Positions 32,408-53,813 of a stretch of DNA of 64,000 nt are shown here, in pieces; within the stretch, counting starts at the first letter, position 1, and each line of letters opens with the position of its first letter. A program made the position numbers and the translations under genes. Where the stretch lies: contig CAKKNE010000001.1 in assembly GCA_918797485.1 (NCBI GenBank), positions 2,852,001 through 2,916,000 of the forward strand, given 5' to 3'. The notes beneath the pieces were generated by a model. The model did not search any database, was not told the DNA's origin, and saw nothing but the letters and a program-made list of their open reading frames with translations. This DNA is from Pelagomonas calceolata (Eukaryota).

Positions 32408-33281
32408 GTGCCCCGTACCGTTAACGGTACGGGGCACACAGGCCCTAGTGAGTTTTGCGCCACTAGCATTTAAGCTGTTTTGCGCCGCTCGTCAGAACGC
32501 TGTTCTTCGCGCTCGTCCTTTTAGCCCTTGTAAAAACGTTTCTCTCGCTCCCCGCGTTCCGATGAGCACCTTTTCAAAACCATCCGAGCCCATGCTGCCG
32601 CGAAACTGCCACCGATCTCTGTGCAGAGCGCTCACACGCGCGCACGCCAGCCGCACTTCATTCCGTGGACCGCGCACGCACAGCGCATAGCATGAGGACG
32701 TGATCCGCACACGTGTGGGATGCATACAGCTGTAGCAGACGACGACAACGACCTATCGGTTTCCCTCCTGAGCTCCGGCTGGTACACCCTGCGCACCCAC
32801 TGCGACACGCTACACAAGTCGAAAAGAGCAGTCGTCGCCGTCTGCGCCCGATCTGCTGCCTCGTGGCGCCGCGCGCTGTCAAAGCTCGGCGCTGCGGCGG
32901 CGTCCGCGACGGAGCACGACGACGTCAAAACCGTCAAACCTGCGGTCGCTGCGGCATCGTGCGCCGTCGTCGCGCTGCCCCGCTGCAGCGGCGACGAAGG
33001 CGTGCGTAGCGGCGCTCGCGAGCGGTGCTCGCCTGATCCCCGAGAAGCCCGCGGCGTAGGAGGAGCTGCCGCGCCGCACCCGGCGGTGGTGCGTCCTCAA
33101 GAACTGGGCGCTTAAGCCGGGCGTACTTTGCGTCGGCGAGTTGTGGACGTTGGAAGCGGAACGTCCGCTTGGCGCTGCCGCCGCCGGCGCGCCGCGCCTT
33201 GTAAAATGCAAGTGCCCGTGGCCCGTCAGCGTTGTGAAAACTGTCCTCACCAATTCATCAGCAACGCAGCTCCGGACCGTG
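32408..33281 (+). repeat. Palindrome-headed repeat, copy C (internally deleted)
   Basis: Starts with a 30-bp palindrome; similar to the reverse complement of about 52540-53320, then jumps into the Zn-ribbon coding sequence (CKMQVPVARQRCENCPHQF). Confidence 0.85.
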
Positions 33282-33512
33282 GAGCTGGGGCTGGAGCTGG
33301 AGCTTGGCCACAAATTTAGAAAGGATAAAATCAAAGAATTCCGACTGACTTGATGCTACGATCAATGTTGGATCGAGCGATGGATCGGGCGATGATGGCT
33401 CTCATTTCGACGTAGCTTAACATAGTAGTGCGGGTTTGTTATCCGGACATCGAGCTACCTCCCGCGCGCAACTGCTGACACACTACGCAGCTAATCCGCA
33501 GCGATACATAGC

Positions 33513-33983
33513 TTGCGCAGGAGTTCAGAAGCTTTGCGCACCTCTGCGCAACACCTGACACGAAGCGCGCAGGACACCATGTCCACGCTAGAGACCATGT
33601 CGGAGAAACCAAGTGTTGATGTGACCTTTACGGAGCAAAGCTTGCACGTGCAGCTCACCCTGCATAAGGCTGGGACAGTATGGCTAGATTGCGTTGAACC
33701 GCAGAGCGCGGCGCACGGACGCGTCAATGTGGGCACATCGCTGGTTGCGGTCAACGGCGCACGGATGGGGAAGCTATTTGGCCGGCAGGCCTGGGTTACC
33801 TTCTGTGAGCGTATCAGAAATATGCAACGACCGATGACACTCACATTCTCCTACTACCCCATTTCTGACGTGTCCTCTAGTCCATACTCGTCAGTGGTTG
33901 ACGACGAGTCCACCTATCGCCAAACTCCCTCCTTTTGGGCTACGGACCATTCCCTTGCCCCTGTTAGTTCCTCATCCTCTTGA
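33513..33983 (+). CDS. Small hypothetical protein, PDZ-like
   Basis: VNVGTSLVAVNG...RPMTLTF resembles the C-terminal half of a PDZ domain. Confidence 0.4.
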   Translation: MRRSSEALRTSAQHLTRSAQDTMSTLETMSEKPSVDVTFTEQSLHVQLTLHKAGTVWLDCVEPQSAAHGRVNVGTSLVAVNGARMGKLFGRQAWVTFCERIRNMQRPMTLTFSYYPISDVSSSPYSSVVDDESTYRQTPSFWATDHSLAPVSSSSS

Positions 33984-34211
33984 TGTTATCCCCATCCTCT
34001 CCCTAGACCCGCGTGAAAAATAAAAAATAAGTAACTTTCTAACCGTTCTATCTTCTGTTAGGGCCAGCGCGGCCTTGAGCGACTTGTTCTTGCTGATGCT
34101 CGACATATTGGGGGTTTCGGCTGAGTGTGCCGCTGCTATATGGTTGCGTTCGTAAGTTTTGGCGTAAGTAAAGGATGCATCTCGCGAATTTCCCCCAAAA
34201 CGGAACGTGGA

Positions 34212-34422
34212 GTGCTCCCAAACAATTAACGGTACGGGTCACACCAGCCCTAGTGAGTTTTGCGCCACTAGCATTTAAGCTGTTTTGCGCCGCTCGTCAG
34301 AACGCTGTTCTTCGCCGCTCGCACTTTCCGCCCGCGTAAAAACGTTTCTCTCGCTCCCCGCGTTCCGATGAGCACCTTTTCAAAACCATCCGAGCCGATG
34401 CGGCCGCGAAACTGCCGCCGAC
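34212..34422 (+). repeat. Palindrome-headed repeat, copy D (end module only, left arm of the palindrome decayed)
   Basis: TTAACGGTACGGGTCACACCAGCCCTAGTGAGTTTTGCGCCAC... matches 32421-32615. Confidence 0.85.
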
Positions 34423-35628
34423 ACCCCGTGGGATGGGGTGGCGTCGTCGGGTGCACAGCCTCTCGCACGCGAGTTCCAGCTGCGCTCGTTAGTGCGCAGC
34501 AGCGACTGACTCTAGCGAACCACAGAGCGCCGCGCTGTCCGCCGCGCGCGCATTCTTCCTCTAAGGCGAGCCGCCGGAGCGAATCGCGAGCCGCCGGAGC
34601 GAATCGGCGCGATGGCGTGCGTGAACTCGTGCGAGTCGTGCGAGATCATCGCCGTCGGCGCCGTGGTCACGGTGAGAGAGAGGCAAGGCACTGGCAGTGG
34701 CGGCGTCGGCGTAGCACTTGGCGGCGCCCTGTGAAAGTCAAATTGTGTGTGTGCTCGAACGCAAATTGCACGCCGCGCGCGTGGCCGCGTGATTTTGGCC
34801 GGCGCAGGTCCGCGCTGTCAACCACGATGGGACGCTTTGCGTCAAGTACACGCTCGGCGGCACAGCACGCGCAGTCGCGAGCGCTGACTGCAGGCCCGGG
34901 AACCACGCGGGCGAGCACTATGAGAATAAGCTGACCAAGTGGCGCAAGCGCGTCGACGGCTTCTTTGGTTGTGACGAGAAGGAGGAGGACGGGGCCTTCG
35001 CGGCGCGGGTTGCTGTGCTCCGGTTGGACGACCTCATCGACAAGAAGAGCCCCGAGCAGGTAGAGAGCCAGTGCAGAAATGTTCATGGTACGTTCAAACT
35101 GGAGTGGGACCGACAGGACATAATCAATCGACTCGCTCTCAATCTCAAAGAGGAGCCACGGCTTGTGACCGGCATAACTTCAGGTGGAGTACGTACTCGA
35201 CAAGATGCTCCACGTGCCGCGGCCACCGGTCCAGGTCGCTTTCCTCCAGGGTGCGATTCCGCTTCAGGCCGGCGCCTGCTTCGACAAGCTAATTGACTTG
35301 CTTCAGGGGCCCACCGGCGGCGGTGACGGTGGCGGTCTGGCCATCGCGACCACGTGCCAAGGCCGCGGCTGCGCAAAGAAAAAGGAGGCCGCCGCCTGGC
35401 GGACAACGGGATCGTCGTGGCTTGGTCGGCGCATCATCCTAGAGCCCGCGTGCATCGGCGCCAAATTCTTGCATCCTTGCGGGGCGCTTTCGAAGTGCAA
35501 CCCTCCGTCGAAAAAGGTGCCGAAGAAAATCATTTGATGGTACGCTCAGGCGGACGGCGAAATTCCGTCCATGGCAACGGTCGACGGCTACCGGCCGCCC
35601 GCTGAGACACGTTTGCGCATCGAGCAGC

Positions 35629-38571: not shown

Positions 38572-39058
38572 GGCCTTTTATCTGCCCCCACTACTCCCCG
38601 CGCCGTTAGCCTCCCAGATAAAGCTAAATCGGGATATTCCACAGTCGTCCGCATTTACAGAACAATTTTTGGAGTCTATACATGGGCAATACCCCGCATT
38701 TACATTGCTACTACAATCATGCGCTAGGGCCGAGAATAATGATTTAGACTCCCTATCCATTGCGGCCCCAGCGCGCACCGCGGAGAGAGAGAGTTGCTTA
38801 GTAACGGGGGGGGGTTTCACCCCCCGCCGTTAGCTAAGTAACGCACTCTCTTCCTGCGGAGCTAACCCGTGATGGTCAAATCTTGAGCGGCTAGGTGGCC
38901 TAGCTCTAAGCAAAGCAATCGACGCGACTAGTAGGTTTACGTTATTGCAAGTTGGCTGGGACTCTAGTCCGGAATAGAGCGTCCACTCTACTGAGCTATT
39001 GGTTGAAGGAGGTCGCTCCTATTACGGTGGGAAGAAGGGGATTCGGTGGGAGCGGCAC

Positions 39059-41446
39059 TCACTCGCAGGCCACGCGTTTGGCCCTCTTGTTGTCGACGGT
39101 CGCTGACTCGGCCACGAACAGCTCCCGCTTCTGGGCGCGGCGCGCGGTGCGCCGCGCCAGCATCGTTGGTTCCGGCGGCGCGTCCTCCTCCCCCTCCTCC
39201 TCCCGCTCCGAGGACACGGCGTCGCGGTCGAGGTCGTAGCCGATCATGGCCGGGCACTTCACGACGCGCAGGAAGCCCTTCTTGTAGTTGTGCAGCACGT
39301 CGCTCTTGCTGCCGCCCAGCGCGATGACGTCCGCTCCGCACTTGGCCTTCTTGTAGGCCTCGTAGCGCGTGTAGCTCGCCGACTCCGGGCGATTCGGGTT
39401 CGCCTGGGCGAACGCGATCTCGAAGCACGCGTTGACGAGCAGCATCTCCGCGACGACTTTGGGCGCGGCGCCATCCAGCAGCCACCGCACGCTCTCGGCA
39501 TGTTCCTCCCCCTCGTTGCCCACGGCGGCTGCCGCGGGCGGAGTCTCCTCCTCGGGCGCGGACGCGGCTTGGGGAGGGGGCGCGGGCGCGTCGCCGACCG
39601 CCACGCGCACGTCGGCCGCAGCGACAGTGTTGAACACGTCGGGCTCGTCGACCCACTCGACGTCGTAGGTCCCGTCGTCGTTCACCCGGTCGATGACGGC
39701 GCGGGACCACTGCCAGCCCCACTTCGCCTCGACGCGCGCGCCGACCGCAAAGGCTGGCAGCGCCGCTGCATCCGCCGCGGTTGCCTCCTCGCGCGCGGGG
39801 GGCGTCTTTCTCTTGGGCGGCGTCGCGGGCGCGGCCGCCACCGCCACCGCCACCGCCGCAGCCTTCGCCTGCCGCCAACCCGGCGGCGGTTCTGCCGCCC
39901 GTTGTACGGGCTGCAGCATCGGCGGCGCCGCGCGCGGCGGCCCCAGAATTGTCGCGCGCATCAGGTCCAGTGCGGAGGGCCGCGGCAGGTTTGTGCTCTT
40001 GAACCGCTTTTTGGGGCCGCGCGGCGGTACCGGCCGCGGCGCCGGCGCCGGCCACCGCCGCGGGATCGTCGCCGCCCCGACCCGGGTCACCTTGAGCGCG
40101 TCCTTCTTCTTCTTTTTCGGCACCGTGCGTTGCCGCGGCGCGGGCGCGGGCGAGGGCGCCGGCGCGCGCCGCTGCGCGGACAGCGCGTCGTCGTCGTCGC
40201 CGATTGATGCCGCGAACGACGAGAAGTCGTCATCACTAATAACACGGCGCTTCTTTGGCAGCACGGCCTCGCTGAGCTCCGCTGCTTGGCGCGCCGCCTT
40301 GGCCTTGAGGCGTCTCCTGTGTTCTTCGATCCAGCCCTGGACCTCGTCGACGGCCGAGTACTCGCAATCATCAATAGTGCCCTTGTCGCCAAACTTCGCG
40401 TCATGGTAGAAACAGACCGGCTCATCGTGCTCGGCGTCGAAGCTGACCTTTAGGACGCGCCACCGCTCGCCGTCGTCGACAAATTCTACACCCTTGAGTT
40501 GGGTGTTCAGTCTCGCGATGAGTCTCTCGTCGTACTCAACGCCGTTTTCCGGGATTTCTGGGTGATCGGTTGCCTCGAAGGCTGCCGCGGCCATGAAGTC
40601 GTCGTTCTCTCTCTCAAATAGGTCGTCCGGCGCGACCGGTTGCTTGTCGTCGTCGTCGTTGCTCGCAGCGGGCGGCGCCGATGGCGCTGCGGGCGGCGCC
40701 GCCGCCGCGGGCGGCGCGGCGGCCTCGCTGAGGCTGGCGAACTTGGCCAGCTTCTTCTTCTTCTTCTTCTTCTTCTTCTTCTTCCTCTTGGGGTGCGCTG
40801 GCTCGGCCAGAACGGCAGCCGGCGGTAGTGCAGCTGGCGCAGGTACGTCGCCGACCACCGCGCGCACGTCGGCCGACGCGACAGTGTTGAACACGTCGGG
40901 CTCGTCGACCCACTCGACGTCGTAGGTCCCGTCGTCGTTCACCCGGTCGATGACGGCGCGGGACCACTGCCAGCCCCACTTCGCCTCGACGCGCGCGCCG
41001 ACCGCAAAGGCTGGCAGCGCCGCTGCATCCGCCGCGGTTGGCTCCTCGCGCGCGGGGGGCGTCTTTCTCTTGGGCGGCGTCGCGGGCGCGGCCGCCACCG
41101 CCGCCGCCGAAGCCGCAGCCTTTGCCTCCCTCTTGCGCGCCTTTTTCACCGCGGACTTTGACTTGATCTTCTTCTTGTGTTTGCCCGTCCTGGTCTTCTT
41201 CGGGGCGAGTTCCAGCACGCCGCCCAGTGACGACCTCGCGGAGTCCAAGACGGCCGCGGCCGCGCCCGCGACCGCGCCGCCCACCTTCTCGGCGAGCTCC
41301 TTAGTCGTTGACTGCATCTCCGCGAGGACGGCGTCCGGCGGCCCGTCGTCGGCCGTCATCACGCTCATCAGGCTCAGGCCTAAGAGACCGGCACCTACAG
41401 CCAGCGATGCTTTGCCGATCGTCAATCTCGTTCCTTTGACCGACAT
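39059..41446 (-). CDS. Protein with an N-terminal hydrophobic anchor, Lys-rich tracts, two Tudor/Agenet-like domains and a C-terminal NPxRP-RYE-YK domain
   Basis: FAVGARVEAKWGWQWSRAVIDRVNDDGTYDVEWVD occurs twice; likely start MSVKGTRL. Confidence 0.7.
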   Translation of the reverse strand: MSVKGTRLTIGKASLAVGAGLLGLSLMSVMTADDGPPDAVLAEMQSTTKELAEKVGGAVAGAAAAVLDSARSSLGGVLELAPKKTRTGKHKKKIKSKSAVKKARKREAKAAASAAAVAAAPATPPKRKTPPAREEPTAADAAALPAFAVGARVEAKWGWQWSRAVIDRVNDDGTYDVEWVDEPDVFNTVASADVRAVVGDVPAPAALPPAAVLAEPAHPKRKKKKKKKKKKKLAKFASLSEAAAPPAAAAPPAAPSAPPAASNDDDDKQPVAPDDLFERENDDFMAAAAFEATDHPEIPENGVEYDERLIARLNTQLKGVEFVDDGERWRVLKVSFDAEHDEPVCFYHDAKFGDKGTIDDCEYSAVDEVQGWIEEHRRRLKAKAARQAAELSEAVLPKKRRVISDDDFSSFAASIGDDDDALSAQRRAPAPSPAPAPRQRTVPKKKKKDALKVTRVGAATIPRRWPAPAPRPVPPRGPKKRFKSTNLPRPSALDLMRATILGPPRAAPPMLQPVQRAAEPPPGWRQAKAAAVAVAVAAAPATPPKRKTPPAREEATAADAAALPAFAVGARVEAKWGWQWSRAVIDRVNDDGTYDVEWVDEPDVFNTVAAADVRVAVGDAPAPPPQAASAPEEETPPAAAAVGNEGEEHAESVRWLLDGAAPKVVAEMLLVNACFEIAFAQANPNRPESASYTRYEAYKKAKCGADVIALGGSKSDVLHNYKKGFLRVVKCPAMIGYDLDRDAVSSEREEEGEEDAPPEPTMLARRTARRAQKRELFVAESATVDNKRAKRVACE

Positions 41447-41683
41447 GGGATGCCGCTCGAAGCCGTTTGATGTGGTGCTGAGAGCTGGGGCAGCCCGCGC
41501 GAAGTTCTGTCGCCTCTCTAAGCGCGCTCCCCAAAAGAGTAATTTGCGCGGCTCCATTTGAATGAATTAAAAAAAAAAAAATTCAAATTACTCTTTTGGG
41601 GAGCGCGCTTAGAGAGGCGACAGAACTTCGCGCGGGCTGCCCCAGCTCTCAGCACCACATCAAACGGCTTCGAGCGGCATCCC

Positions 41684-42577
41684 ATGTCGGTCAAAGGAAC
41701 GAGATTGACGATCGGCAAAGCATCGCTGGCTGTAGGTGCCGGTCTCTTAGGCCTGAGCCTGATGAGCGTGATGACGGCCGACGACGGGCCGCCGGACGCC
41801 GTCCTCGCGGAGATGCAGTCAACGACTAAGGAGCTCGCCGAGAAGGTGGGCGGCGCGGTCGCGGGAGCAGGCGCGGCCGTCTTGGACTCCGCGAGGTCGT
41901 CACTGGGCGGCGTGCTGGAACTCGCCCCGAAGAAGACTAGGATAGGCAAACACAAGAAGAAGATCAAGTCAAAGTCCGCGGTGAAAAAGGCGCGCAAGAG
42001 GGAGGCAAAGGCTGCGGCTTCGGCGGCGGCGGTGGCGGCCGCGGCCGCGACGCCGCCCAAGAGAAAGACGCCCCCCGCGCGCGAGGGGGAGGCCCCGCCC
42101 GCGGCGGCCGCCGTGGGCAACGAGGGGGAGGAACATGTCGAGAGCGTGCGGGGGCTGCTGGATGGCGCCGCGCCCAAAGTCGTCGCGGAGATGCTGCTCG
42201 TCAACGCGTGCTTCGAGATCGCGTTCGCCCAGGCGAACCCGAATCGCCCGGAGTCGGCGAGCTACACGCGCTACGAGGCCTACAAGAAGGCCAAGTGCGG
42301 AGCGGACGTCATCGCGCTGGGCGGCAGCAAGAGCGACGTGCTGCACAACTACAAGAAGGGCTTCCTGCGCGTCGTGAAGTGCCCGGCCATGATCGGCTAC
42401 GACCTCGACCGCGACGCCGTGTCCTCGGAGCGGGAGGAGGAGGGGGAGGAGGACGCGCCGCCGGAACCAACGATGCTGGCGCGGCGCACCGCGCGCCGCG
42501 CCCAGAAGCGGGAGCTGTTCGTGGCCGAGTCAGCGACCGTCGACAACAAGAGGGCCAAACGCGTGGCCTGCGAGTGA
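41684..42577 (+). CDS. Inverted, internally deleted paralog of 39059-41446 (Tudor domains lost, frame kept)
   Basis: Near-identical to the reverse complement of 41050-41546 and about 39025-39545. Confidence 0.7.
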   Translation: MSVKGTRLTIGKASLAVGAGLLGLSLMSVMTADDGPPDAVLAEMQSTTKELAEKVGGAVAGAGAAVLDSARSSLGGVLELAPKKTRIGKHKKKIKSKSAVKKARKREAKAAASAAAVAAAAATPPKRKTPPAREGEAPPAAAAVGNEGEEHVESVRGLLDGAAPKVVAEMLLVNACFEIAFAQANPNRPESASYTRYEAYKKAKCGADVIALGGSKSDVLHNYKKGFLRVVKCPAMIGYDLDRDAVSSEREEEGEEDAPPEPTMLARRTARRAQKRELFVAESATVDNKRAKRVACE

Positions 42578-42980
42578 GTGCCACTCCCACCGGGCGAATC
42601 CCCTTCTTCCCCACCGCCGACTGAAGTAATTCTAGAGTTACTTCAGTAAGACCCCCTACTACTAGGGTTACTTTGGATCATACTAGCGCGATATACTTAC
42701 CTCGCCTGGATCGAGCCATTAAGACCGTGGCGTTGTTGTTGGAAAGCGCGCCCGTCGACGTATATTAACCAGACTTAATTTCAGCAGAAGTCCAAAGTGA
42801 AACGTGAAATCATTTGATGATGTGGTTGTTTAAAATGCATTCGTGTGTGCGTGGTACCTCCACAATGACTCCCCTCAAGTGTTCCACGAATTCACTGCTA
42901 GTACTTCTGCTGGGTTCTTCCCGGAGCTTTTGGACGTCGAACATAGCGGCCAAGTAGCTCCAGCGGGAGGAAGTACTTAG

Positions 42981-44066
42981 TCACGATTCACCCACGACGG
43001 ATTGTAGTCTAGAATACGCTTCCGATCGAAGTTGTGCTATTATGGCGCGCTCGGACATGCGTATATGATCGTCGTCGAGCTCGCGTGTGCAGAAGTAGTC
43101 TGCGCGCGTATCGTCAGAGCACCAGGCGACGCGGACGCAGCCCCGGACCATGTCCACCGACGTCAGCTCTTGTTCGAAAGAGACTGCCTCGGCGAGCTCT
43201 CGCTCGTGATCGAAGGCTGGGTGGAGACCATCGAGGTCTGCCGTGGACAAAGGCGCGTCCTGGAGCTCAACGAGCATGGCCCGCGTATACATGTAGGTAA
43301 ACACCAACTTCAGATCGACGTCGGCGTTGGCGTTGGCATCATCTAAGGGTTCATCGTAGTACATTTCTTGGACCGCGACGACGTACTCGTCTAGGGTGAC
43401 CTCACCGTTTTCTTCACCGGCGACCACTCGAATTTTTGGCATTACGCAGCCGTCGGCGTCGTCGATGCCCATGCTGTCCAAAATGAAGGGCTCGAAACCG
43501 GGAACCGTCACGGTTGCCTTCCGACAGAAGATCCGTTTGAAGCCGCGCTCAACCGGAGGCAAAACAAAGCACGGGTGGACCGGCTCGGAGGTTTCGTCCT
43601 GGTCTTCCGTGGACCATGATAAAGCGTCCATTAAAGGCGCCTCGACGCCCATCGTCGTCCGCGTGCCGATACCGCCTATATGTAGAGATTGAGGTGGCCT
43701 CGTGGGCTCGGTCGTGGCGTCCGGCGCCTCGTCCTCCACCTGCGCCTCGACTGCCTTCTTTATCGTCGTCGTCGTCGTCGTCTTCTTCTTTTTCTTTTTC
43801 TTCTTCTTCTCAAGCACATGCTTCGCCATGGTCGTGGTTGACTCGGCTTTGGTTTTCGACTTGTATTTGCTCTTCTTGGCCTTTTTCGACTTGGGAGTGA
43901 GGCCCAGCATGCTCCCCAGCGATAGCCGTGCATTTTTGCCGGCATTTTCCCATGCATCGTCGCCGCTCATGCAGAGAATTGCGCCCAGGCACAACCCTGT
44001 TCCAGCCAAAGCCAATACGGCTTGGGCCTTAGACGGTCTGTTTTCTTTCATCGGGCGACTGGACAT
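42981..44066 (-). CDS. Protein with an N-terminal hydrophobic anchor, a Lys-rich tract and a C-terminal BAH-like domain
   Basis: YVVAVQEMYYD...LVFTYMYT...ERELAE...VDMVRGCVRV...DYFCTRELD follows the BAH motif order. Confidence 0.55.
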   Translation of the reverse strand: MSSRPMKENRPSKAQAVLALAGTGLCLGAILCMSGDDAWENAGKNARLSLGSMLGLTPKSKKAKKSKYKSKTKAESTTTMAKHVLEKKKKKKKKKTTTTTTIKKAVEAQVEDEAPDATTEPTRPPQSLHIGGIGTRTTMGVEAPLMDALSWSTEDQDETSEPVHPCFVLPPVERGFKRIFCRKATVTVPGFEPFILDSMGIDDADGCVMPKIRVVAGEENGEVTLDEYVVAVQEMYYDEPLDDANANADVDLKLVFTYMYTRAMLVELQDAPLSTADLDGLHPAFDHERELAEAVSFEQELTSVDMVRGCVRVAWCSDDTRADYFCTRELDDDHIRMSERAIIAQLRSEAYSRLQSVVGES

Positions 44067-44835
44067 GTCACTGCAGCCTGCGTGCGGAGAGAGCTGGACG
44101 AGCTGGGCTGCTTGGCGACAGCAACTCGGAAGCGCGAAGTTGGCTCGGACCTGTTGGGCTCCGCCGTCCCCGGACTCGTTTGAAACGCCGTGCGGGTTAT
44201 CTAGACCTACTAGGGTCGCTTATTACCCTTAGCTTAAAGTAGCTTTTACCGACACTAGCCCCTAGTAGGTTGTGCTTTGGAGGGCCGGTAGACCACCTTG
44301 CACCCACCCACACGGGCCACCCGGCTGGTGCTGGACGCGTCCAGACCCCTCAAGGCTCCCACCCAGCGGAGGGCCGTCCTGTGCCGGCTGTCGAGACGAA
44401 TGGAATTAAAAACATTAGCGCTCCAAAAAAGGCACTTGTAGCCCCCGCGATGACCGCGATCCGGTCACCCGCCGGCCAAGCCTGCTGGCGGACGTCTTGC
44501 GGGTCTTTTGAAGCCTCGGAATCGTAGGGTTGGTGGAGTAACATTCTCAATCTAAATTTGGCCGATTTGGGGCAAGACCCCCCCTAGCAGGTTCGGGCTT
44601 CAGGACGGCGCACTTCCGCACAAGGACGGATCCTTCCTGGGAGGGCTTCCCTACCGTTCGCCCCCGAGGTTTGCTAAAGTATTAAGTTCAAATCTGTGGA
44701 GCGCGGACTGCCCCAGCCCATAGAGGAGCGGCGCACTCGCAGCCGAGACCTCGCAAAGCGGCCACTCAGCCGAAACCCTCGCAGAAGCGGCTGCCCCAAC
44801 GTATAGCAGCGGCACACTCAGCCGAAACCCCCAAT

Positions 44836-45900
44836 ATGTCGAGCATCAGCAAGAACAAGTCGCTCAAGGCCGCGCTGGCCCTCGGCGGCGGCCTCGTGAC
44901 CGTCGGATTGATGGCTGCCATGATGAACGACGACGACGGACCGCCCGAGGACGTCGTCGACGGCGTGCAGTCGACGATGACCGGCCTCGTGGACAAGGCG
45001 GGCGGCGCGGTCGCGGCCATGGCCGCGTCCGTTGGCGACGCCGTCAAGGCGTCGCTCGGCGGCGTGCTGAAGAGCTCGGCGCCGCCAGCCGCGAAGAAGG
45101 CCAAGAAGAAGAAGACGGCGAAGACGAAGGCGGCGTCCAAGGCAAAGAAGGCGCGCAAAGCGGCGAAGGCTGCCAAAGCGGTGGCGGCGCCCGTGACGCC
45201 GCCGAAGGCGCCGCGCGCGGCGCCCACGCAGGAGGAGCCGGTCGTGGCGGCCGCGCCGCCGGCACCCGAGGCCGCGCCGCCCGCGGAGGCGCCCACGACG
45301 GCTCCGCCGGCCTTCGCGGTCGGCGCGCGCGTCGAGGCGCGGTGGGCCGGGACGTGGTACGGCGCCGTCGTCGATTCAACGCACGGGGACGGGAGCTACG
45401 AGCTCGAGTGGCTCGACGACCCCAACGTCTTCAACACCGTGGCGGCGGCCGACGTGCGCGCGGCGGCGGCCGACGAGCCCGCGCCGCCGCCGCCGCCGGA
45501 GGCCGAAGAGGAGGCGGCGGCCGCGCCCGAGGAGGAGGCGCCCGAGGCTGCGGCCGCGGCCGCGGCCGAGCAGCCCGCGGACGACGAGAGCTGCGAGGAG
45601 GCGGCCGACGTGCAGGGCCTGCTCGACGGCGCCGCGCAGCGCGTCATCGTCGACATGCTCCTCGCGAATGCGAGCCTTAAGATCGCGTTCGACCAGGAGA
45701 ACCCGAAGCGCCCGGACTCGGCGAGCTTCAAGCGCTACGAGGCCTACAAGGCGGCCACGTGCGGCGCCGACGTGCTGGCGTGGGGCGGTTCCAAGAGCGA
45801 CGTGCTCCACGACTACCGGAAGGGCTTCCTCCGCGTGACGCGCTGCCCGGTCATGGTCGCCTACGACCTCGACCGCGACGCAGACGTAGGGTTGAGTTAG
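44836..45900 (+). CDS. Anchor + Tudor + NPKRP-RYE-YK domain protein; diverged paralog of 39059-41446
   Basis: FAVGARVEARWAGTWYGAVVDSTHGDGSYELEWLD; IAFDQENPKRPDSASFKRYEAYK. Confidence 0.75.
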   Translation: MSSISKNKSLKAALALGGGLVTVGLMAAMMNDDDGPPEDVVDGVQSTMTGLVDKAGGAVAAMAASVGDAVKASLGGVLKSSAPPAAKKAKKKKTAKTKAASKAKKARKAAKAAKAVAAPVTPPKAPRAAPTQEEPVVAAAPPAPEAAPPAEAPTTAPPAFAVGARVEARWAGTWYGAVVDSTHGDGSYELEWLDDPNVFNTVAAADVRAAAADEPAPPPPPEAEEEAAAAPEEEAPEAAAAAAAEQPADDESCEEAADVQGLLDGAAQRVIVDMLLANASLKIAFDQENPKRPDSASFKRYEAYKAATCGADVLAWGGSKSDVLHDYRKGFLRVTRCPVMVAYDLDRDADVGLS

Positions 45901-45940
45901 GGTTGAGTTAAAACCGAGGGGCGGGGCCGAGGGCGCGGGC

Positions 45941-47400
45941 GTGGGCGCCGCGCCACCCGAGCGAGGATCCGTATGTCGCCAGGTCAGGCGCGAAATCGAC
46001 GGTCTCCCGCTCGTAGAACGCTCGCTTGTTGGCCGCTGCGCGCAGCCGCTTCGCCGCGGCTTGTATGCCGTCGCGGTGGGCGCGCAGCCGCTTCTTCTCC
46101 TTGCGGGCTGCCTTGCGTGCTTCGCGGTCCGGGGCTGCGTTGCTGATGAACTGGTGAGGACAGTTTTCACAACGCTGACGGGCCACGGGCACTTGCATTT
46201 TACATTTCGGGCACGTCTTCTTCGGGGTGCGGGCGGCCTTCTGGTTTCGTACTTCAACGTGGGTCAAATCTTGTAGAGTCATCATGAACACTATGTTTCA
46301 CAGATGTCCGCGCTACTCCGTGCGCTCCGTGCACTTGCGCCCTTTGCTGCTTGAAAATTTTCTAGACATTTTGGCGGCTCGCCGGCACCTCGCTGTTACA
46401 TACAGCAAATGTCGATCTCGACACCGTGCACGAATTGATCCCATGACACGTTGTCATTCTCCCTCGACGCCTATCCATCGAAGAGCTCCAAGACCGCGCC
46501 GCCGCTCACGCCCGACTGCTCGTGAGCCAATGAGCACTCGACGCGTCTTTCGTCCGCCGCATGCACTATTGGTTACGCGTGTGTCGCCGAACCAGAGCAA
46601 CGCAGCGCTCTTAATAGGTGCACGTGCCAAAAACTCGCAAGCCACGTCGGCTCGGCACCGGTCGCCAGGCGCGGCGCGCAGGCGGCGGCAGCGCCAAGCG
46701 CACGTTCCGCTTCCAACGTCCACAAACTCGCCAACGCAAAGTACGCCCGGCTTAAGCGCCCAGTTCTTGAGGACGCACCACCGCCGGGTGCGGCGCGGCA
46801 GCTTCTACGCCGCGGGCTTCTCGGGGATCAGGCGAGCACCGCTCGCGAGCGCCGCTACGCACGCCTTCGTCGCCGCTGCAGCGGGGCAGCGCGACGACGG
46901 CGCACGATGCCGCAGCGACCGCAGGTTTGACGGTTTTGACGTCGTCGTGCTCCGTCGCGGACGCCGCCGCAGCGCCGAGCTTTGACAGCGCGTGGCGCCA
47001 CGAGGCAGCAGATCGGGCGCAGACGGCGACGACTGCTCTTCTCTTGCGTAGCGTGTCGCAGTGGGTGCGCAGGGTGTACCAGCCGGAGCTCAGGAGGAAA
47101 ACCGATAGGTCGTTGTCGTCACCTGCTACTGCTATATGCATCCTACACGTATGCGAATCGCGTCCTCATGCTGCGCGCTGCGCGTGCGAGGTGCACGGGA
47201 TGAAGTGCGGCTGGTGTGCGTGCGACATGAGATGGTGCGGGTTAGTGTCGGCGGCAGTTTCGCGGCAAGGTGGGCTCGGATGGTTTTGAAAAGGTGCTCA
47301 TCGGAACGCGGGGAGCGAGAGAAACGTTTTTACGGGGACGGGAAGGGCGAGCGGCGAAGAACAGCGTTCTGACGAGCGGCGCAAAACAGCTTAAATGCTA
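45941..47400 (-). repeat. Palindrome-family repeat, copy A (about 1.46 kb; lacks the palindrome; contains truncated Zn-ribbon ORF 45908-46291)
   Basis: Direct repeat of 51797-53265. Confidence 0.9.
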
Positions 47401-47546
47401 CCGCGAGCTCGGCTCCGGCCCGCCGGTCCGCGTAGTGCATCGAGCCTCGCAGCGTTTTCTCACGTCGCACGCACTCCAAGCGGCTCGCCGACCCCTCCGC
47501 GACGGGGCCGCCACGGCTCTAGTAATCATAGTTTTGGATCATAGTC

Positions 47547-47939
47547 TTAAACGCGGGCAGCCTCCGTCGCGGCGGCCCCGGGCGGCCGTGCGGGCGCCGG
47601 CGAGGCGTCGGCCCGGATGCGGTCGACAGGCACGTCGGCCTCGCAATCACCGGTGTCAAAGGTCACGGTGTACTTGCGAACGCGCCGCGTTTTATTGGCC
47701 TGGGCCTGGCAGGCGACCTTATACGCGGACCCCCGGTCGTAACGTTTCGCCATGACCTGCACCTCATTGACGGCCGTGACGATCCCCGGCGACCACGCGG
47801 CGCCGAAGAGGGTGTCTTCCATCTCGCCCGTGTGCGGGTTGCGGAACCGCCTGACGTGCTGGAGCTTGACCGCCGCGACGCGGTTGCCGACCTTGAAGAA
47901 CTCCTGCGGCGGCGCCGGCTGCGACGATGAGCAGCCCAT
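47547..47939 (-). CDS. Small Tudor-like protein with an N-terminal acylation motif (MGCSSS)
   Basis: FKVGNRVAA...WSPGIVTAVN...YTVTFDTGDCEADVPVDRIR. Confidence 0.55.
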   Translation of the reverse strand: MGCSSSQPAPPQEFFKVGNRVAAVKLQHVRRFRNPHTGEMEDTLFGAAWSPGIVTAVNEVQVMAKRYDRGSAYKVACQAQANKTRRVRKYTVTFDTGDCEADVPVDRIRADASPAPARPPGAAATEAARV

Positions 47940-48355
47940 GATGCGACAGATCGGTGATCCACCACAGGCTGCCTTCCCAGAACCAGACCAAGGAGTTGCA
48001 AGGAGTTACCCCCACCACACTTTCATCAGTAGCAGCCCTTTGAGCACACAACTGGACGCAGCCTTGCCAAGCTGGCTGCCCACGGCTTCCCTACTCTGGC
48101 CAGACTCCGCGCGCGGCCGGTCTGGCTGATCCTGCTAGGCATCCCTAGTGTCTTTCTGCCGCTAACCCTATTATTTGTCACCCCCCCCAGGGGCTCCGCC
48201 CACTAGTTCTAGCACCGCGAGCTGGACCTTATAAGGTCCAGCTCGACAGATATAAAAAATCGAGTCGGTCAGGGTTAGGGTTAAATATCCACCAGGAAAT
48301 TACGTGAAGATGCCAAGGACGCGGTTTCCCCTTCATTCTTTTCGTGAGGTTGAGT

Positions 48356-49918
48356 CTAGCCGGGGGCAATTTTTTGGGCGGCACGCGCCGCTCCGATCAT
48401 GTCACGGTTCAGGTAGCACGAAACCAACGAGCGGACACGGAACCAGCCGGGATCATCACTTTCGTACCACGGCTCTGTTGCGCAGTGCGGCGCCGAAGGA
48501 TTAAACAAGAGTATGTCGCCCTGACGCAGCGAGACGTAGATTCCCTCGGGTCCACTGGCAGGAAAATAGAAACCGCTTCCACGCACGTTTTGGCCGTGTG
48601 CCCGGGACTGAGCACGTGCGCGCTTACGGGGCGGTCTCACCGTCTCGTCATTCGAACCCCACGCGCAAGCGACCATAAACGCAAGACCAGGATCATCGTC
48701 AACATGTGCTAAAATGGCACCGAGATCCAACCAGACGGCCGCCAGTAAGGGTACACTGGGGGCTTCCGTCCTGCCTTCGCCGAGCCAATCCTGCATGTTG
48801 AAGGCCAGCTTCGCCATTTCGTGCGGCAAAAGCTGGGCATAGAGGTAGGGTCGAGCTTCCTGGTATATTTTCTCCAAGGTGCATCGTAGCTCCTCGTTGA
48901 GGCGTGCGCGCCGCGCCGACGGCGCTGCTGGCTCGTAAAACAAATTCCTGACTGATGTTTTCCGGTCAAGGTGGGGTGGTGCGCGGTACCCGCTGTGCCA
49001 CGCCCGCTTGTAAACTCTGCTACGTGCCTTGGATTGTGCTTGCTTGGAACCGCTGAACTCGTCCACCTCATCAGCGGTCTCACTCGCGATGGCCGCGAGA
49101 ATGCGCGCTAGGTCGACGGAGGGTTTGGCGAACGGTCGAAACTCGCTGTTTAGCTTGCCACGGACTACGACGAAGTCGAGCTCGGCATCTGGTGTCGGCC
49201 CGGCGCAAATCGCATCAGCGCCCCGCCTGAAGTGTGAGTTTTTCGGGATGGGCCTGAGGGTCGTCTTTGTATAATCTTCCGGCCAGGTTACGCGTAAGCG
49301 CGTAATGTCGGCGAGGATGCGAAGGCGCATCGGAAACTTTTTTGCATTGAGCATGTGTCGCAACTCAGGATCACGGTCAAGAAGCGGACGCAAAATCTCC
49401 TCGCACTTTGCCGTAGTAACGCAGAGCGACGGTGGCGAACAACCTTTGCAAGCAAATTTGCAGACGGCCGCTGCAGCAGCCTTGTCTAGCGCGTGCTCGA
49501 GGTGCTCCCGCACCTCGGGGCGCGCCATGTCCGGCGCGGTGGTCCAAAAATTACCAGTGTGGCCTCGTTGTCCCGTCCTGCCGTTTGCATCGATTCGCAG
49601 CTGCGAGCCCGCATGATTCCCCCCCACGCTGCTCCTGCTCGGCAGGTGGCATGCTCCCTTGAGCCGCGCTAGCTGATCCTCTCGCGCACGCTCCCCAAAC
49701 AGCGAGCCGTCGCGTACGACTGCGGCAACGATTTGCGCCCAGGCGAGGGCAAATTTCTTCCCATCACCTAGTTTTCTCCGCTCGAGATGCTCCTGCGCGC
49801 GCAGATCCTCCAGTGTTGCGGCCGCATCATGGAAACCACTCCGACGTAGCACCTCGAGAAGATCTCCCTGCAGTGTTCTCTTGTCACAGGGCAGCTTTGC
49901 GTCGTCGGAAGATGCCAT
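48356..49918 (-). CDS. 2OG-Fe(II) dioxygenase, TET/JBP-like
   Basis: AHVDDD (HxD), GSGFYFP, LRQGDILLFNPSAPHCAT (distal His) and RVRSLVSCY, in the order typical of the TET/JBP double-stranded beta-helix. Confidence 0.7.
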   Translation of the reverse strand: MASSDDAKLPCDKRTLQGDLLEVLRRSGFHDAAATLEDLRAQEHLERRKLGDGKKFALAWAQIVAAVVRDGSLFGERAREDQLARLKGACHLPSRSSVGGNHAGSQLRIDANGRTGQRGHTGNFWTTAPDMARPEVREHLEHALDKAAAAAVCKFACKGCSPPSLCVTTAKCEEILRPLLDRDPELRHMLNAKKFPMRLRILADITRLRVTWPEDYTKTTLRPIPKNSHFRRGADAICAGPTPDAELDFVVVRGKLNSEFRPFAKPSVDLARILAAIASETADEVDEFSGSKQAQSKARSRVYKRAWHSGYRAPPHLDRKTSVRNLFYEPAAPSARRARLNEELRCTLEKIYQEARPYLYAQLLPHEMAKLAFNMQDWLGEGRTEAPSVPLLAAVWLDLGAILAHVDDDPGLAFMVACAWGSNDETVRPPRKRARAQSRAHGQNVRGSGFYFPASGPEGIYVSLRQGDILLFNPSAPHCATEPWYESDDPGWFRVRSLVSCYLNRDMIGAARAAQKIAPG

Positions 49919-50839
49919 CCGAGGCGAGTCCGCCGCAGTGGATAGGGAGGGCGGCAGTAAGCCGCGGATGCTTGCCGAGGCGCCCTCCTGGGGCAGCCTG
50001 GGTGCAGGCAGGGCGCAAATTGCTCTGCCTCAAGGGAAAGAGGGAAAGCCCAAGCTGGGGCACAGCTAAAGATCAATACTTACGTACCGAGCTCCGGAGC
50101 CTTTGCGCCGGAAGCTTCTAGTTCTACGCAGCCCTAAGCCTCGCCCGGGCCGGGGGCTGCGGTGTACACTAATGTACCGCATGCGGTACATTAGTGAAAC
50201 TTCAACTTGAGTTCATTGTAAAAAAAAAATCTAGATAATTAGAAACATGTCTGAATCATCTTCATCCTTGCGACTTATGGAACAACTTTACAAGAGCGAT
50301 GAGGAACGCTGCTCAATTTGGCAAAGTCACAAATCCAAGTCGAAGCTGCCCACGGAGAAGGCCGAGTAGCCCTTTCGCTCGACGATGCGCTGGAGGTCCT
50401 CGATGGAGTGCTCCTCGCGCCAGTTGTGGATGATTTCGACGTCGCCTTGATAGGCCATGTCAATGTCCTCGTGCGCCGACCAAATTGATTTAACAATTCT
50501 ACTTGAAAAATTCCAGGAACAAACAATCTGTATTCATAGCCATTTTTTTGGGTTAGCGACCATCGAAGCGGGCTTTGGTGGCCTCGACCAATTCAACGCA
50601 TCGCTCAAGGGCGTCGTGGCGGATCTGCTAAAGCGCGCCGCGGACACGCCACGCGGCGGGCCATCGTTCTCCGTGCGGTCGTCGACGAGTAATTTGTGAT
50701 CTGTGGTACTCGCCCTTAATCAAACCCAGTAGTGCACGGGTTTTACATAGAGGGGAATTACTCCGATTTATAACCAACCCCCAAATAGAACCACGACCAG
50801 CACTGCGACGCCATGACCGCCTGCTGACGAACAACCCAG

Positions 50840-52147
50840 TCACTTCAGAAAACCGGACAGCGTGGACTGAACAAGCGCGCTAGCGCGCGCCGCCATTCCG
50901 CGAGGTCGTGCATCGGGAGCGACCGGGGGCGTTTCTTCGTCTTTCATCCAGAAGACGAGGTAAATCGTATTCATGGCTTCGTGCACGCCGTTTCCAGCAG
51001 CCTTCAATGTATTTGTGAAGCCCTCGTATTTGAGCCTCTTGACGTATGCTTGCAAATCCGTCTCGATTTTCTGTGCAGTACCCTTGCCCTCGACTTGAAA
51101 AAGGGCGAACATGCGTTTCTTGGTTCCGTTGCTCGGATCTTTCTGGCCCAAGCGGACGAACGGAGCTTGCTTCGTCACGCCGATGTCGATGTCGTACCCA
51201 AGCCTCAAGAAGCATTGAATGACGCGAATCGACCAGTCTTGGTAGAGCCTAATAGCCTCTTCCTTCCTTGGATGCGTCTTGTAGACAGAATTTTTAATTG
51301 GATCCAACTTCCACGGTCCGCTCTTTGCGACCTCCTTCTCGCTCCCCCAGCTGTGCTCGTGGAGATCTGGTTCGTCACCTCCTCCCTCGATCAGCAATGC
51401 CAGCTCATTTATCACCACGCACGACCCACGACTTAACCGCTGCGACCGCTTCTTCCACATAGCGACCTCTTGCCTCAGAGACCGCTGCATCTCCTGGTAC
51501 TTGGCGCGCTCACGCGCGGCGGCTACCTCCAAAGCGGGAGCAGGCGGATACAGCGTGGGAGCAGGTGCCTCCGGCGCGACATCAATCTGCATGGGCGCCT
51601 CCGGCGCGACGGCTGGCGCATCCGGCAAGGCGACCGGCACATCCGGCGCGACATCCATCGGCATGGGCGCCTCTGGCGCAGACGCAGGCGTCTCCGGCAC
51701 TGCGGCCAAAACTGTCGGTTCGAAAACGGTTGGCTCCGCCGGCGCGACATCTAGCGCCTCGCGCGCAAGCGCCATCCCTTCCGTCGGAGCGGCCACGTGG
51801 GCGCCGCGGCACTCGTGCGAGGATCCGTGCGTCGCCAGATCAGGCGCGAAATCGACGGTCTCCCGCGCGTTGGCCGCTCGCTCGTTGGCCGCTGCGCGCA
51901 GCCGCTTCGCCGCGGCTTGTATGCCGTCGCGGTGGGCGCGCAGCCGCTTCTTCTCCTTGCGGGCTGCCTTGCGTGCTTCGCGGTCCGGGGCTGCGTTGCT
52001 GATGAACTGGTGAGGACAGTTTTCACAACGCTGACGGGCCACGGGCACTTGCATTTTACATTTCGGGCACGTCTTCTTCGGGGTGCGGGCGGCCTTCTGG
52101 TTTCGTACTTCAACGTGGGTCAAATCTTGTAGAGTCATCATGAACAC
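50840..52147 (-). CDS. Zn-ribbon + Pro/Ala repeats + coiled coil + GIY-YIG-like nuclease domain
   Basis: CPKC-x10-CENC; YDIDIGVTKQAPFVRLGQ...AQKIETDLQ...GFTN. Confidence 0.5.
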   Translation of the reverse strand: MFMMTLQDLTHVEVRNQKAARTPKKTCPKCKMQVPVARQRCENCPHQFISNAAPDREARKAARKEKKRLRAHRDGIQAAAKRLRAAANERAANARETVDFAPDLATHGSSHECRGAHVAAPTEGMALAREALDVAPAEPTVFEPTVLAAVPETPASAPEAPMPMDVAPDVPVALPDAPAVAPEAPMQIDVAPEAPAPTLYPPAPALEVAAARERAKYQEMQRSLRQEVAMWKKRSQRLSRGSCVVINELALLIEGGGDEPDLHEHSWGSEKEVAKSGPWKLDPIKNSVYKTHPRKEEAIRLYQDWSIRVIQCFLRLGYDIDIGVTKQAPFVRLGQKDPSNGTKKRMFALFQVEGKGTAQKIETDLQAYVKRLKYEGFTNTLKAAGNGVHEAMNTIYLVFWMKDEETPPVAPDARPRGMAARASALVQSTLSGFLK

Positions 52148-53320
52148 TATGTTTCACAGATGTCCGCGCTACTCCGTGCGCTCCGTGCACTTGCGCCCTT
52201 TGCTGCTTGAAAATTTTCTAGACATTTTGGCGGCTCGCCGGCACCTCGCTGTTACATACAGCAAATGTCGATCTCGACACCGTGCACGAATTGATCCCAT
52301 GACACGTTGTCATTCTCCCTCGACGCCTATCCATCGAAGAGCTCCAAGACCGCGCCGCCGCCCACGCCCGACTGCTCGTGAGCCAATGAGCACTCGACGC
52401 GTCTTTCGTCCGCCGCATGCACGGGCGTGTTGATTAGGCGTGTGTCACCGAACCAGAGCAACGCAGCGCCCTTGATAGGTGCACGTGCCAAAAACTTGCA
52501 AGCCGCGTCGGCTCGGCATCGGTCGCCAGGCGCGGCGCGCAGGCGGCGGCAGCGCCAAGCGCACATCCCGCTTCCAACGTCCACAAGCTCGCCGACGCGA
52601 AGTACGCCCGGCTTAAGCGCCCAGTTCTTGAGGACGCACCACCGCCGGGTGCGGCGCGGCAGCTCCTCCTACGCCGCGGGCTTCTCGGGGATCAGGTGCA
52701 CGTCGCTCGCGAGCGCCGCTACGCACGCCTTCGTCGCCGCTGCAGCGGGGCAGCGCGACGACGGCGCACGATGCCGCAGCGACCGCAGGTTTGACGGTTT
52801 TGACGTCGTCGTGCTCCGTCGCGGACGCCGCCGCAGCGCCGAGCTTTGACAGCGCGCGGCGCCACGAGGCAGCAGATCGGGCGCAAACGGCCACGACTGC
52901 TCTTCTCGACTTGCGTAGCGTGTCGCAGTGGGTGCGCAGGGTGTACCAGCCGGAGCTCAGGAGGGAAACCGATAGGTCGTTGTCGTCGCCTGCTACTGCT
53001 GTATGCATCCCACACTTGTGCGAATCGCGTCCTCATGCTGCGCGCTGCGCGTGCGAGGTGCACGGGATGAAGTGCGGCTGGCGTGCGCGCGTGTCAGCGC
53101 TCTGCACAGAGATCGGCGGCAGTTTCGCGGCAGCATCGGCTCGGATGGTTTTGGAAAGGTGCTCATCGGAACGCGGGGAGCGAGAGAAACGTTTTTAGAC
53201 GGGCGGAAAGGGCGAGCGGCGAAGAACAGCGTTCTGACGAGCGGCGCAAAACAGCTTAAATGCTAGTGGCGCAAAACTCACTAGGGCCTGTGTGCCCCGT
53301 ACCGTTAACGGTACGGGGCA
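51797..53320 (-). repeat. Palindrome-headed repeat, copy B (most complete; leads into the 435-aa ORF)
   Basis: 28-bp palindrome at 53293-53320; shared with copies A, C, D and E. Confidence 0.9.
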
Positions 53321-53581
53321 GCCGGTGGTCACGTCCCAGGAGACGGTGCCTCGGACATCTCGACGTCGCCGCCCGACACGGCGCCGGTGACATTTGAAGT
53401 CTTTCGCTTCTTGGTCCGCTTGAGCCGATCGTTGTCCCGTCTGAGTTGTTCTAGCTCCTCGCGGAGCTCCTCGATCTTGGCCTCTCTGATCCTCTTGAGC
53501 CGATCGTTGTCCCGTCTGAGTATTTCCAGCTCTTCGCGGAGCCGAAGCTGGCGCCTAAGACTCGCGACGTGGTCGCGCACC

Positions 53582-53794
53582 TGCCCCGTACCGTTAACGG
53601 TACGGGGCACACAGGCCCTAGTGAGTTTTGCGCCACTAGCATTTAAGCTGTTTTTCGCCGCTCGTCAGAACGCTGTTTTTCGCCGCTCGCCCTTTCCGTC
53701 CCCGTAAAAACGTTTCTCTCGCTCCCCGCGTTCCGATGAGCACCTTTTCAAAACCATCCGAGCCCACCTTGCCGCGAAACTGCCGCCGACACTA
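53582..53794 (+). repeat. Palindrome-headed repeat, copy E (end module only)
   Basis: Palindrome at 53582-53609, then sequence matching the reverse complement of about 47243-47400. Confidence 0.9.
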
Positions 53795-53813
53795 GGACCG
53801 TTTCGGACCCGCT

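What the first reader, a model, noticed from the sequence alone, without database searches (positions are those of the whole stretch)
32408..53609. Family of 28-30-bp palindromes with a shared core and 6-bp centre punctuates the accessory island
Seen: GTGCCCC-GTACC-GTTAAC-GGTAC-GGGGCAC at 32408-32437 (28-bp copies at 53293-53320 and 53582-53609; decayed copy at 34212-34242); ACTGAA-GTAAT-TCTAGA-GTTAC-TTCAGT at 42620-42647 (one mismatch); CGAGCT-GGACC-TTATAA-GGTCC-AGCTCG at 48218-48245; CACTAAT-GTACC-GCATGC-GGTAC-ATTAGTG at 50167-50196. Outer arms and centres differ, but length, symmetry and a G(T/G)A(C/A)C-N6-G(G/T)T(A/C)C core are kept. They lie between the main gene modules. Known: protelomerases/telomere resolvases cut palindromes with a 6-bp stagger, and tyrosine recombinases use 6-8-bp spacers. 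Inference: these may be recombination, resolution or hairpin-end sites that delimit exchangeable gene cassettes in a eukaryotic genome. No cognate enzyme is visible in the window.
Basis: partly seen in the sequence, partly recalled or inferred. Interest (0 to 1): 0.88.

Follow-up and report, generated by a model that had tools for sequence, protein, structure and literature searches.

The report
Hairpin-tipped ends of algal jumping DNA
These 28-base mirror sequences are the exact tips of several families of jumping DNA (one family alone turns up with about 120 different neighbours in ocean samples), likely pasted in by a retrovirus-type integrase and likely folded into hairpins while they move, much like ends recently described for virus-like elements in another protist.

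Summary
The palindromes are real and far beyond chance, but they are not crossover sites between gene cassettes. They are the outermost 28 bp (30 bp in one family) of mobile DNA elements. Family A (32409, 53293, 53582, damaged copy 34212) occurs in 121 distinct contexts in metagenome contigs. Its flank changes exactly at the outer edge. 89 ends are perfect, in two versions with both arms changed together. Four of five inward-facing end pairs carry a 4-bp target duplication, including 32409/53320, which makes a 20.9-kb element with ~790-bp inverted ends. One of them (G), inserted at window 38681 in other haplotypes, encodes a retroviral-type integrase folding like mavirus/foamy-virus integrases. 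No tyrosine recombinase or protelomerase was found. Best reading: ends of integrase-mobilised, Polinton/virophage-related elements that likely form hairpins when free. Nine of 11 ends with a truncated outer arm break at the centre. Closest precedent: 52-nt terminal palindromes of Halocafeteria endogenous virophages. Family A's own integrase and any capsid or replicase genes were not found.

The parts
32405..32408 (+). 4-bp target-site duplication (GCCG), left copy
   Evidence: identical to 53321-53324; contigs of X5 and X9 leave the window exactly at 32408, X3 reads through
32409..32436 (+). Family A terminal palindrome, TG...CA, left tip of a 20.9-kb element
32409..33199 (+). Left terminal inverted repeat (~790 bp, 95% to 52528-53320)
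34212..34424 (+). Family A end with inner arm intact (34228-34241) and outer arm lost or decayed; A similarity to 34424
   Evidence: same junction in L039, L066, L117
36283..38571 (+). Cargo ORF, 762 aa, no Pfam hit
38681..38682 (.). Empty site: in L066 and L068 a family G element (28-bp palindrome, TG...CA, integrase gene 760 bp inside) is inserted here; window and L039 are empty
39059..45900 (.). Three paralogous cargo ORFs (39059-41566 -, 41543-42577 +, 44686-45900 +) sharing a domain also fused to the C-terminus of 3 integrase homologues
   Evidence: tblastn E 8e-5 to 4e-4
42620..42647 (+). Family B 28-bp palindrome (one mismatch); likely an element tip, single copy seen
   Evidence: paralog 39025-39561 matches up to 42616 and lacks it; no second copy
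45940..47400 (-). Internal copy of family A sequence, cut about 55 bp before the palindrome
48218..48245 (+). Family C 28-bp palindrome inserted into a high-copy 35-bp repeat (48182-48217)
   Evidence: other copies of the repeat continue with a different consensus after 48217 in all 4 runs laid
48356..50029 (-). Cargo ORF behind palindrome C with a likely TET/JBP-type 2OG-Fe dioxygenase domain
   Evidence: HxD...H...R motif; ESM Atlas hits 0.94-0.95 with Tet_JBP clusters; no Pfam or PDB hit
50167..50196 (+). Family D 30-bp terminal palindrome, multi-copy, element extends to the right
   Evidence: different outer flanks in L059 and an X4 contig
50840..52153 (-). Family A internal ORF, 437 aa: zinc ribbon plus a GIY-YIG/T5orf172-like part (lead only)
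   Evidence: also inside A elements in L042, L068; Atlas 0.82-0.85
52528..53320 (-). Right terminal inverted repeat ending in the family A palindrome 53293-53320
53321..53324 (+). 4-bp target-site duplication (GCCG), right copy
53582..53944 (+). A further family A end (palindrome 53582-53609) of a second subtype, no partner end in the window

Best explanation
The palindromes are the outermost 28 bp (30 in family D) of several families of mobile DNA elements nested in this island, likely inserted by a retroviral-type (rve) integrase of the Polinton/virophage kind, and their tips likely fold into hairpins when the element is free. Shown: terminal position, many different insertion sites, 4-bp target duplications, co-varying arms, and an rve integrase inside one such family (G). 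Inferred: (1) the same integrase clade moves families A-F in trans; (2) the freed end is a 12-bp-stem hairpin whose 3'-OH (CA in A and G) is joined to the target, after which repair copies the hairpin out as a perfect 28-bp palindrome plus a 4-bp duplication; (3) the hairpin may also prime copying of the element, as proposed for Halocafeteria virophages; (4) occasional opening of the hairpin at its tip leaves the half-palindrome ends; (5) single surviving ends mark deletions, rearrangements or large cargo elements, which is how gene content of the island varies.
For: Terminal position: 121 distinct upstream contexts in 120 loci plus the window; 89 perfect, 6 full-length with 1-2 mismatches, 12 without outer arm, 11 otherwise rearranged, 3 too short. 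Flanks show no conserved target motif. TSD: 4 of 5 inward pairs (window GCCG, L027 CAAC, L116 CTCG, family E in L040 ATCT; L030 none), chance per pair 0.0045. Co-variation: 74 TGCCCC..GGGGCA and 15 TGACCC..GGGTCA, one discordant end at a contig end. Both versions occur with both alleles of a site just inside the palindrome, so the arms stay matched across haplotypes. Length rule: non-repeat perfect palindromes in 466 kb fall at 28-32 bp (6 cores) or at 22 bp and below. Enzyme: G encodes a 613-aa protein with conserved D161, D243 and E283; best fold matches are PFV intasome (E 9e-9) and mavirus/MELD rve integrases (E 2e-9); Pfam rve in 3 of 9 homologues. Island cargo shares a domain with integrase homologues. 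Centre breaks: 9 of 11 simple outer-arm truncations keep 0-4 nt of it, p 0.002. All seven palindromes fold as hairpins, -7 to -15 kcal/mol. Precedent: bioRxiv 10.64898/2026.07.28.741278.
Against: No integrase was found inside any family A-F copy (tblastn of 159 integrase-family proteins hits a catalytic core only in L066/L068), so the enzyme link rests on G. G's second end and TSD were not seen. Only A and G end in TG...CA. Three homologues in giant-virus-like contigs (L135, L136, L138) have no palindrome above 18 bp near them. No capsid, ATPase or replicase was detected. Centre breaks also follow from ordinary palindrome instability in chromosomes. Most resolved A copies show no partner end within the locus (28 of 33 rows lose similarity 59-967 bp inside), which ordinary two-ended insertion does not explain directly. 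No hairpin molecule was observed: only contigs were available.
Confidence: 0.65

Rival explanations
1. Ordinary cut-and-paste DDE transposons (Ginger-like or several superfamilies) whose inverted repeats begin with a doubled, symmetric transposase-binding site; no hairpin intermediate exists.
For: 4-bp TSD and TG...CA ends match Ginger (PMC2836005, passages); G's tip fits TGTNR; D starts with CACTA; no replicase found.
Against: Seven unrelated sequences share one length and loop-free symmetry; arms co-vary; breaks cluster at the centre; the G protein shows no conserved HHCC finger in the alignment (by eye).
Confidence: 0.2
2. Tyrosine-recombinase or protelomerase sites cut with a 6-bp stagger at the centre.
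For: 28 bp = 11+6+11 resembles dif/telRL geometry (recalled); 9 ends break within 4 nt of the centre; a telRL-like site exists in a brown-algal endogenous giant virus (PMC13236599, passages).
Against: Insertions carry the whole palindrome, with unrelated flanks at the outer edge and a 4-bp TSD. Centre and arms differ among seven families. No such enzyme in 108 island ORFs (Pfam also missed the G integrase, so this negative is weak). A protelomerase acting in trans to make the hairpin is not excluded.
Confidence: 0.07
3. One-ended rolling-circle (Helitron/HUH-like) elements with the palindrome as terminator hairpin.
For: Most A copies show one conserved end and a variable inner break; some interiors hold captured genes.
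Against: Two-ended copies with 4-bp TSD exist; the palindrome is flush with the end, with no CTRR tail; no HUH protein seen. In L070 the two sides of a one-ended copy are not one gene, so it is not a clean insertion.
Confidence: 0.06
4. Transcription-terminator or regulatory hairpins of the neighbouring genes.
For: B, C and D lie downstream of minus-strand ORFs.
Against: Family A sits at about 120 unrelated places, inside and outside genes; presence is polymorphic.
Confidence: 0.02

Closest known systems
Terminal palindromes of endogenous virophages and PLVs of Halocafeteria seosinensis (bioRxiv 10.64898/2026.07.28.741278; passages and part 3 of 5 read)
   Same: Palindrome at the tip of the TIR next to the TSD; association with particular rve integrases; nesting of elements; RING and GIY-type accessory genes; hairpin-priming model.
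   Different: 52 nt there (subtype 5) against 28-30 here. There the carriers are complete viruses; here no capsid or replicase was detected. Here there are 119-213-bp miniatures, a 20.9-kb high-GC cargo element, about 120 insertion contexts, co-varying arms and centre-cut ends, none of which appear in the parts read.
Ginger1 and Ginger2/TDD DNA transposons (PMC2836005; passages read)
   Same: Integrase-type DDE enzyme, 4-bp TSD, TG...CA ends (G fits TGTNR).
   Different: No target preference here (CCGG or RTATAY there); TIR up to 790 bp; 'palindrom' does not occur in that paper's main text; five of seven families do not start with TG; no HHCC finger seen.
Polinton/Maverick, mavirus and MELD-virus rve integrases
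   Same: Fold and domain order of the G protein; about 20-kb size with long TIRs.
   Different: 4-bp TSD (5-6 bp there, recalled); no pPolB, ATPase or capsid detected.
Protelomerase telRL sites, e.g. the Ectocarpus endogenous phaeovirus (PMC13236599; passages read)
   Same: Perfect palindrome with a possible hairpin at the centre.
   Different: There one internal site per genome and CC-CC junctions without TSD; here sites are terminal and bordered by a TSD.

Membership tests
Polisuviricotina (Polinton/PLV/virophage) | rve-type integrase near one end | tested here: met
   met for family G only; none found in A-F
Polisuviricotina (Polinton/PLV/virophage) | long terminal inverted repeats and a TSD around 15-25 kb | tested here: met
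   32409-53320, 790-bp TIR, 4-bp TSD; joined empty site not read letter by letter
Polisuviricotina (Polinton/PLV/virophage) | major capsid protein, packaging ATPase, replicase | tested here: inconclusive
   no hit in 108 island ORFs (Pfam) or 16 proteins (PHROGs); these libraries also missed the G integrase; G is incomplete in both loci
Ginger1/Ginger2 | 4-bp TSD | tested here: met
   4 of 5 pairs, families A and E
Ginger1/Ginger2 | TGTNR termini | tested here: not met
   G only; A starts TGC/TGA, B-F otherwise
Ginger1/Ginger2 | target preference CCGG/CCGT or RTATAY | tested here: not met
   flank positions -1 to -8 of 89 ends show no conserved motif
Ginger1/Ginger2 | N-terminal H2C2 zinc finger | tested here: not met
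   no conserved His/Cys set in alignment A1 (by eye)
Tyrosine recombinase / protelomerase site | strand exchange at the centre, no TSD | tested here: not met
   junctions at the outer edge in 95 full-length ends; TSD present
Tyrosine recombinase / protelomerase site | cognate enzyme and conserved binding arms | tested here: inconclusive
   arms differ among 7 families; no enzyme in window; whole genome not held
Helitron / HUH elements | no TSD, subterminal hairpin followed by CTRR, Rep protein | tested here: not met
   TSD present, palindrome flush with the end, no Rep hit
Hairpin-ended replicons (parvovirus-like priming) | fold-back or hairpin-capped free molecules | not testable with these tools
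   all runs offered were assembled contigs

The most novel reading that the evidence does not exclude
A group of capsid-less integrase transposons with a fixed-length hairpin tip. The symmetric 28-mer presents the same end on both strands, so one integrase could nick the outer edge on one strand and the inner edge on the other. That would resolve an extruded cruciform into a hairpin-capped end with a free 3'-OH, with no second-strand nuclease and no protein-primed polymerase. Such ends could act singly, capture 20-kb blocks of host-like cargo (including a TET/JBP-type gene) and drive strain-to-strain gene-content change in an abundant ocean alga: a transposition route between Ginger transposons and virophages.
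Probability: 0.25. Interest if true: 0.85.

Novelty: new variant of a known kind. Interest (0 to 1): 0.62.

Why it matters
Retroviral-type integrases cut only one strand of each end, so how Ginger-, Polinton- and virophage-type elements free and copy themselves without RNA or a protein primer is an open question. The Halocafeteria preprint proposes hairpin ends and asks for wider tests. This alga supplies an active system with short defined ends, natural compensated variants, centre-cut products, miniatures of about 120-210 bp and a candidate integrase, which makes the hairpin model directly testable in vitro. The ends also mark a source of gene-content variation in a widespread marine alga, and a 28-bp-palindrome scan would be a simple way to find such elements in other protists.

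Tried and rejected
1) Target preference for CACCG, suggested by B, C and one X2 joint: not borne out by 89 family-A flanks. 2) One-ended copy in L070 as a clean insertion into one gene: homologues continue about 290 residues differently, so the copy marks a rearrangement or a large element. 3) A fixed second, non-palindromic end at 53944: longer copies continue past it. 4) Family A palindrome core in viral contigs: 14 hits, none with A arms or flanks; G palindrome 0 hits; G integrase and G ORF2 as single queries found no viral relatives, P0012 none. 5) Integrase homologues in L135, L136, L138 lack long palindromes. 6) Sequence searches of the G integrase against Pfam, PHROGs and PDB were blank or weak; the fold gave the answer (mean pLDDT 69). 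7) Fold of the 48356 ORF failed (pLDDT 30); not searched. 8) No whole genome is held, so no genome-wide count. 9) Earlier scan notes: none for this genome or sequence; two from other genomes did not bear. 10) Nine literature searches found no description of such ends in pelagophytes; the library lacks most subscription papers and Repbase.
Full report
Observation. All seven sites are present as described. Five perfect palindromes of 28-30 bp plus one GC simple repeat lie in the window, whereas 30 simulated 64-kb sequences reached at most 22 bp. The host is a marine eukaryote: the flanks encode an LHC protein, ribosomal L29, SAM synthetase and a Ras protein, and the stretch is held by three runs of one organism and by marine metagenomes of several studies. 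I infer a pelagophyte alga from its TIR-bearing introns (recalled resemblance to Aureococcus introners). No whole genome is held.

Position of the palindromes. Self-comparison shows that the three intact GTTAAC-centred copies (family A) share several hundred bases on one side only, and that similarity stops at the outer edge of the palindrome. With the window they give 121 distinct contexts: 89 perfect 28-mers, 6 full-length with 1-2 mismatches, 12 lacking the outer arm, 11 otherwise rearranged, 3 too near a contig end. The flanks are unrelated and show no conserved target motif. The loci may include sister species, and contexts count places, not events per genome.

Target duplications. Among five inward-facing pairs, four have identical 4-mers on both sides: the window pair 32409/53320 (GCCG), a 213-bp miniature in L027 (CAAC), a 119-bp one in L116 (CTCG) and a family E miniature in L040 (ATCT, left end reduced to a 12-nt arm). 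L030 has none. Chance is 0.0045 per pair. So 32409-53320 reads as one 20.9-kb element with 790-bp inverted ends. Contigs of X5 and X9 leave the window exactly at 32408 while X3 reads into the palindrome; X13 does not cover the flank. The letters of the empty allele were not shown, so its join to 53325 is inferred.

Other families. C sits in a high-copy 35-bp repeat whose other copies continue differently after 48217 in all four runs laid. D has different outer flanks in L059 and in an X4 contig. B is absent from the inverted paralog that matches up to 42616 and was seen once. Apart from simple repeats, perfect palindromes in 466 kb were either 28-32 bp or at most 22 bp. What is conserved is length, symmetry and terminal position.

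Enzyme. In L066 and L068 a G element is inserted at window 38681/38682, where the window and L039 are empty. It is lower in GC (39-48% in most 500-bp windows) and encodes a 613-aa protein 760 bp from its tip. Pfam and PDB sequence searches were blank; rve scored weakly in 3 of 9 homologues. D161, D243 and E283 are invariant or nearly so in 23 homologues. The model (pLDDT 69) matches foamy-virus and Ty3 intasomes and the mavirus and MELD-virus integrases best. The family has 206 representatives at E up to 0.001. Three homologues carry a C-terminal domain that recurs in three cargo ORFs of the island. Against a tight link: no catalytic core was found in the window or in any A-F copy, and homologues in three giant-virus-like contigs have no long palindrome nearby. 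No recombinase, protelomerase, HUH, capsid or replicase hit appeared among 108 island ORFs, but Pfam also missed the G integrase.

Signs of a hairpin. Family A occurs as 74 TGCCCC..GGGGCA and 15 TGACCC..GGGTCA ends, with a single mixed end at a contig edge. Both versions occur with both alleles of a position just inside the palindrome, so the two arms stay matched while neighbouring sites reassort or mutate again. Of the 12 ends without an outer arm, two are rearranged (L023, L105) and were dropped. Adding one end that lost 2 nt (L033/L069) gives 11 simple truncations; 9 keep only 0-4 nt beyond the centre (p 0.002, or 0.006 without the ambiguous 34212 copy). All seven palindromes fold as hairpins. 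These fit hairpin-capped free ends that are sometimes opened at the tip, but chromosomal palindrome instability predicts centre breaks too.

One-ended copies. Of 39 rows, 6 were the palindrome read from the wrong side. Of the other 33, three belong to two-ended miniatures, one is the reference, one a duplicate, and 28 lose similarity to the references 59-967 bp inside. Some continue into DUF285 fragments, others into host genes such as Hsp90 or a kinase. A test on L070 showed that the two sides are not one gene. Single ends therefore mark deletions, rearrangements or elements larger than the loci. L068 shows the result for this island: G replaces window 38682-50574, and the right end is a half palindrome with another flank.

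Mechanism. Shown: terminal position, polymorphism, 4-bp TSD, arm co-variation, an rve integrase in G. Inferred: the same clade moves the other families in trans; the free end is a hairpin whose 3'-OH is joined to the target; fill-in restores a perfect palindrome; the hairpin may prime copying. Confidence 0.65 for the whole, about 0.95 for 'element ends with a 4-bp TSD'.

Comparison with known systems. The Halocafeteria preprint (10.64898/2026.07.28.741278; passages and part 3 of 5 read; supplements closed and may hold lengths and TSDs) reports palindromes within TIRs next to TSDs in four virophage subtypes and one PLV subtype, 52 nt in subtype 5, linked to particular rve integrases, and proposes hairpin priming. 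This finding works like that, but membership in Polisuviricotina is open because no capsid or replicase was seen. Ginger elements (PMC2836005, passages) share the 4-bp TSD but fail on termini, target preference and zinc finger. The Ectocarpus telRL-like site (PMC13236599, passages) is internal and has no TSD. DUF285 genes are reported in flux between a pelagophyte and its giant virus (10.1101/2024.10.30.620910, passages), which fits a viral traffic route. 10.64898/2026.10.13.758929 (passages) suggests that replication-integration modules can move alone. Nine searches found no account of these ends in pelagophytes.

Verdict. Real, explained in outline, a new variant of a recently described kind. 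Interest 0.62; the novel case (hairpin-ended, capsid-less integrase transposons) has probability 0.25 and interest 0.85.

Noticed in passing
window 48356-50029 (-): Likely TET/JBP-type dioxygenase carried behind palindrome C; only 3 close homologues found, cluster of 178 members. A possible DNA-base-modifying cargo gene.
   Followed up: partly
window 39025-42616: Large inverted duplication centred on a 37-nt A-rich loop at about 41565, giving two divergent copies of one cargo gene; a third paralog at 44686-45900.
   Followed up: partly
window 60844-61185: Foldback of 161-bp arms, 99% complementary, 20-nt loop; MITE-like.
   Followed up: no
window 55952-56139, 57342-57482, 61453-61656, 62715-62845: Repeated introns with terminal inverted repeats (introner-like) in the LHC, RRM and PP2C genes.
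   Followed up: no
window 48182-48217: High-copy 35-bp GC-rich repeat with many different upstream flanks and a conserved downstream start; another mobile-element end, hit by both C and an A end.
   Followed up: partly
window 53815-53870, 45888-45912, 48268-48283: Short TTAGGG-like arrays inside or next to element ends; part of the family A subterminal region.
   Followed up: no
L077, L080, L094, L099: The inner break of short A copies is followed by a few bases that repeat or invert the outer flank, resembling templated end-joining.
   Followed up: no
L004, L022, L052: DUF285 repeat genes lie directly inside or beside family A ends.
   Followed up: partly
L135, L136, L138: Relatives of the G integrase sit among giant-virus-like genes without visible ends; L138 is filed under a bacterial MAG and is probably mis-binned.
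   Followed up: partly
window 1-30000: Low-GC stretch (43-55% in most 2-kb bins) of core genes next to the 58-73% GC part; possibly the low-GC region of a chromosome.
   Followed up: no
window 34060-34140 and 44802-44882: 81-bp exact inverted copy of the start of the 44686 cargo gene.
   Followed up: no
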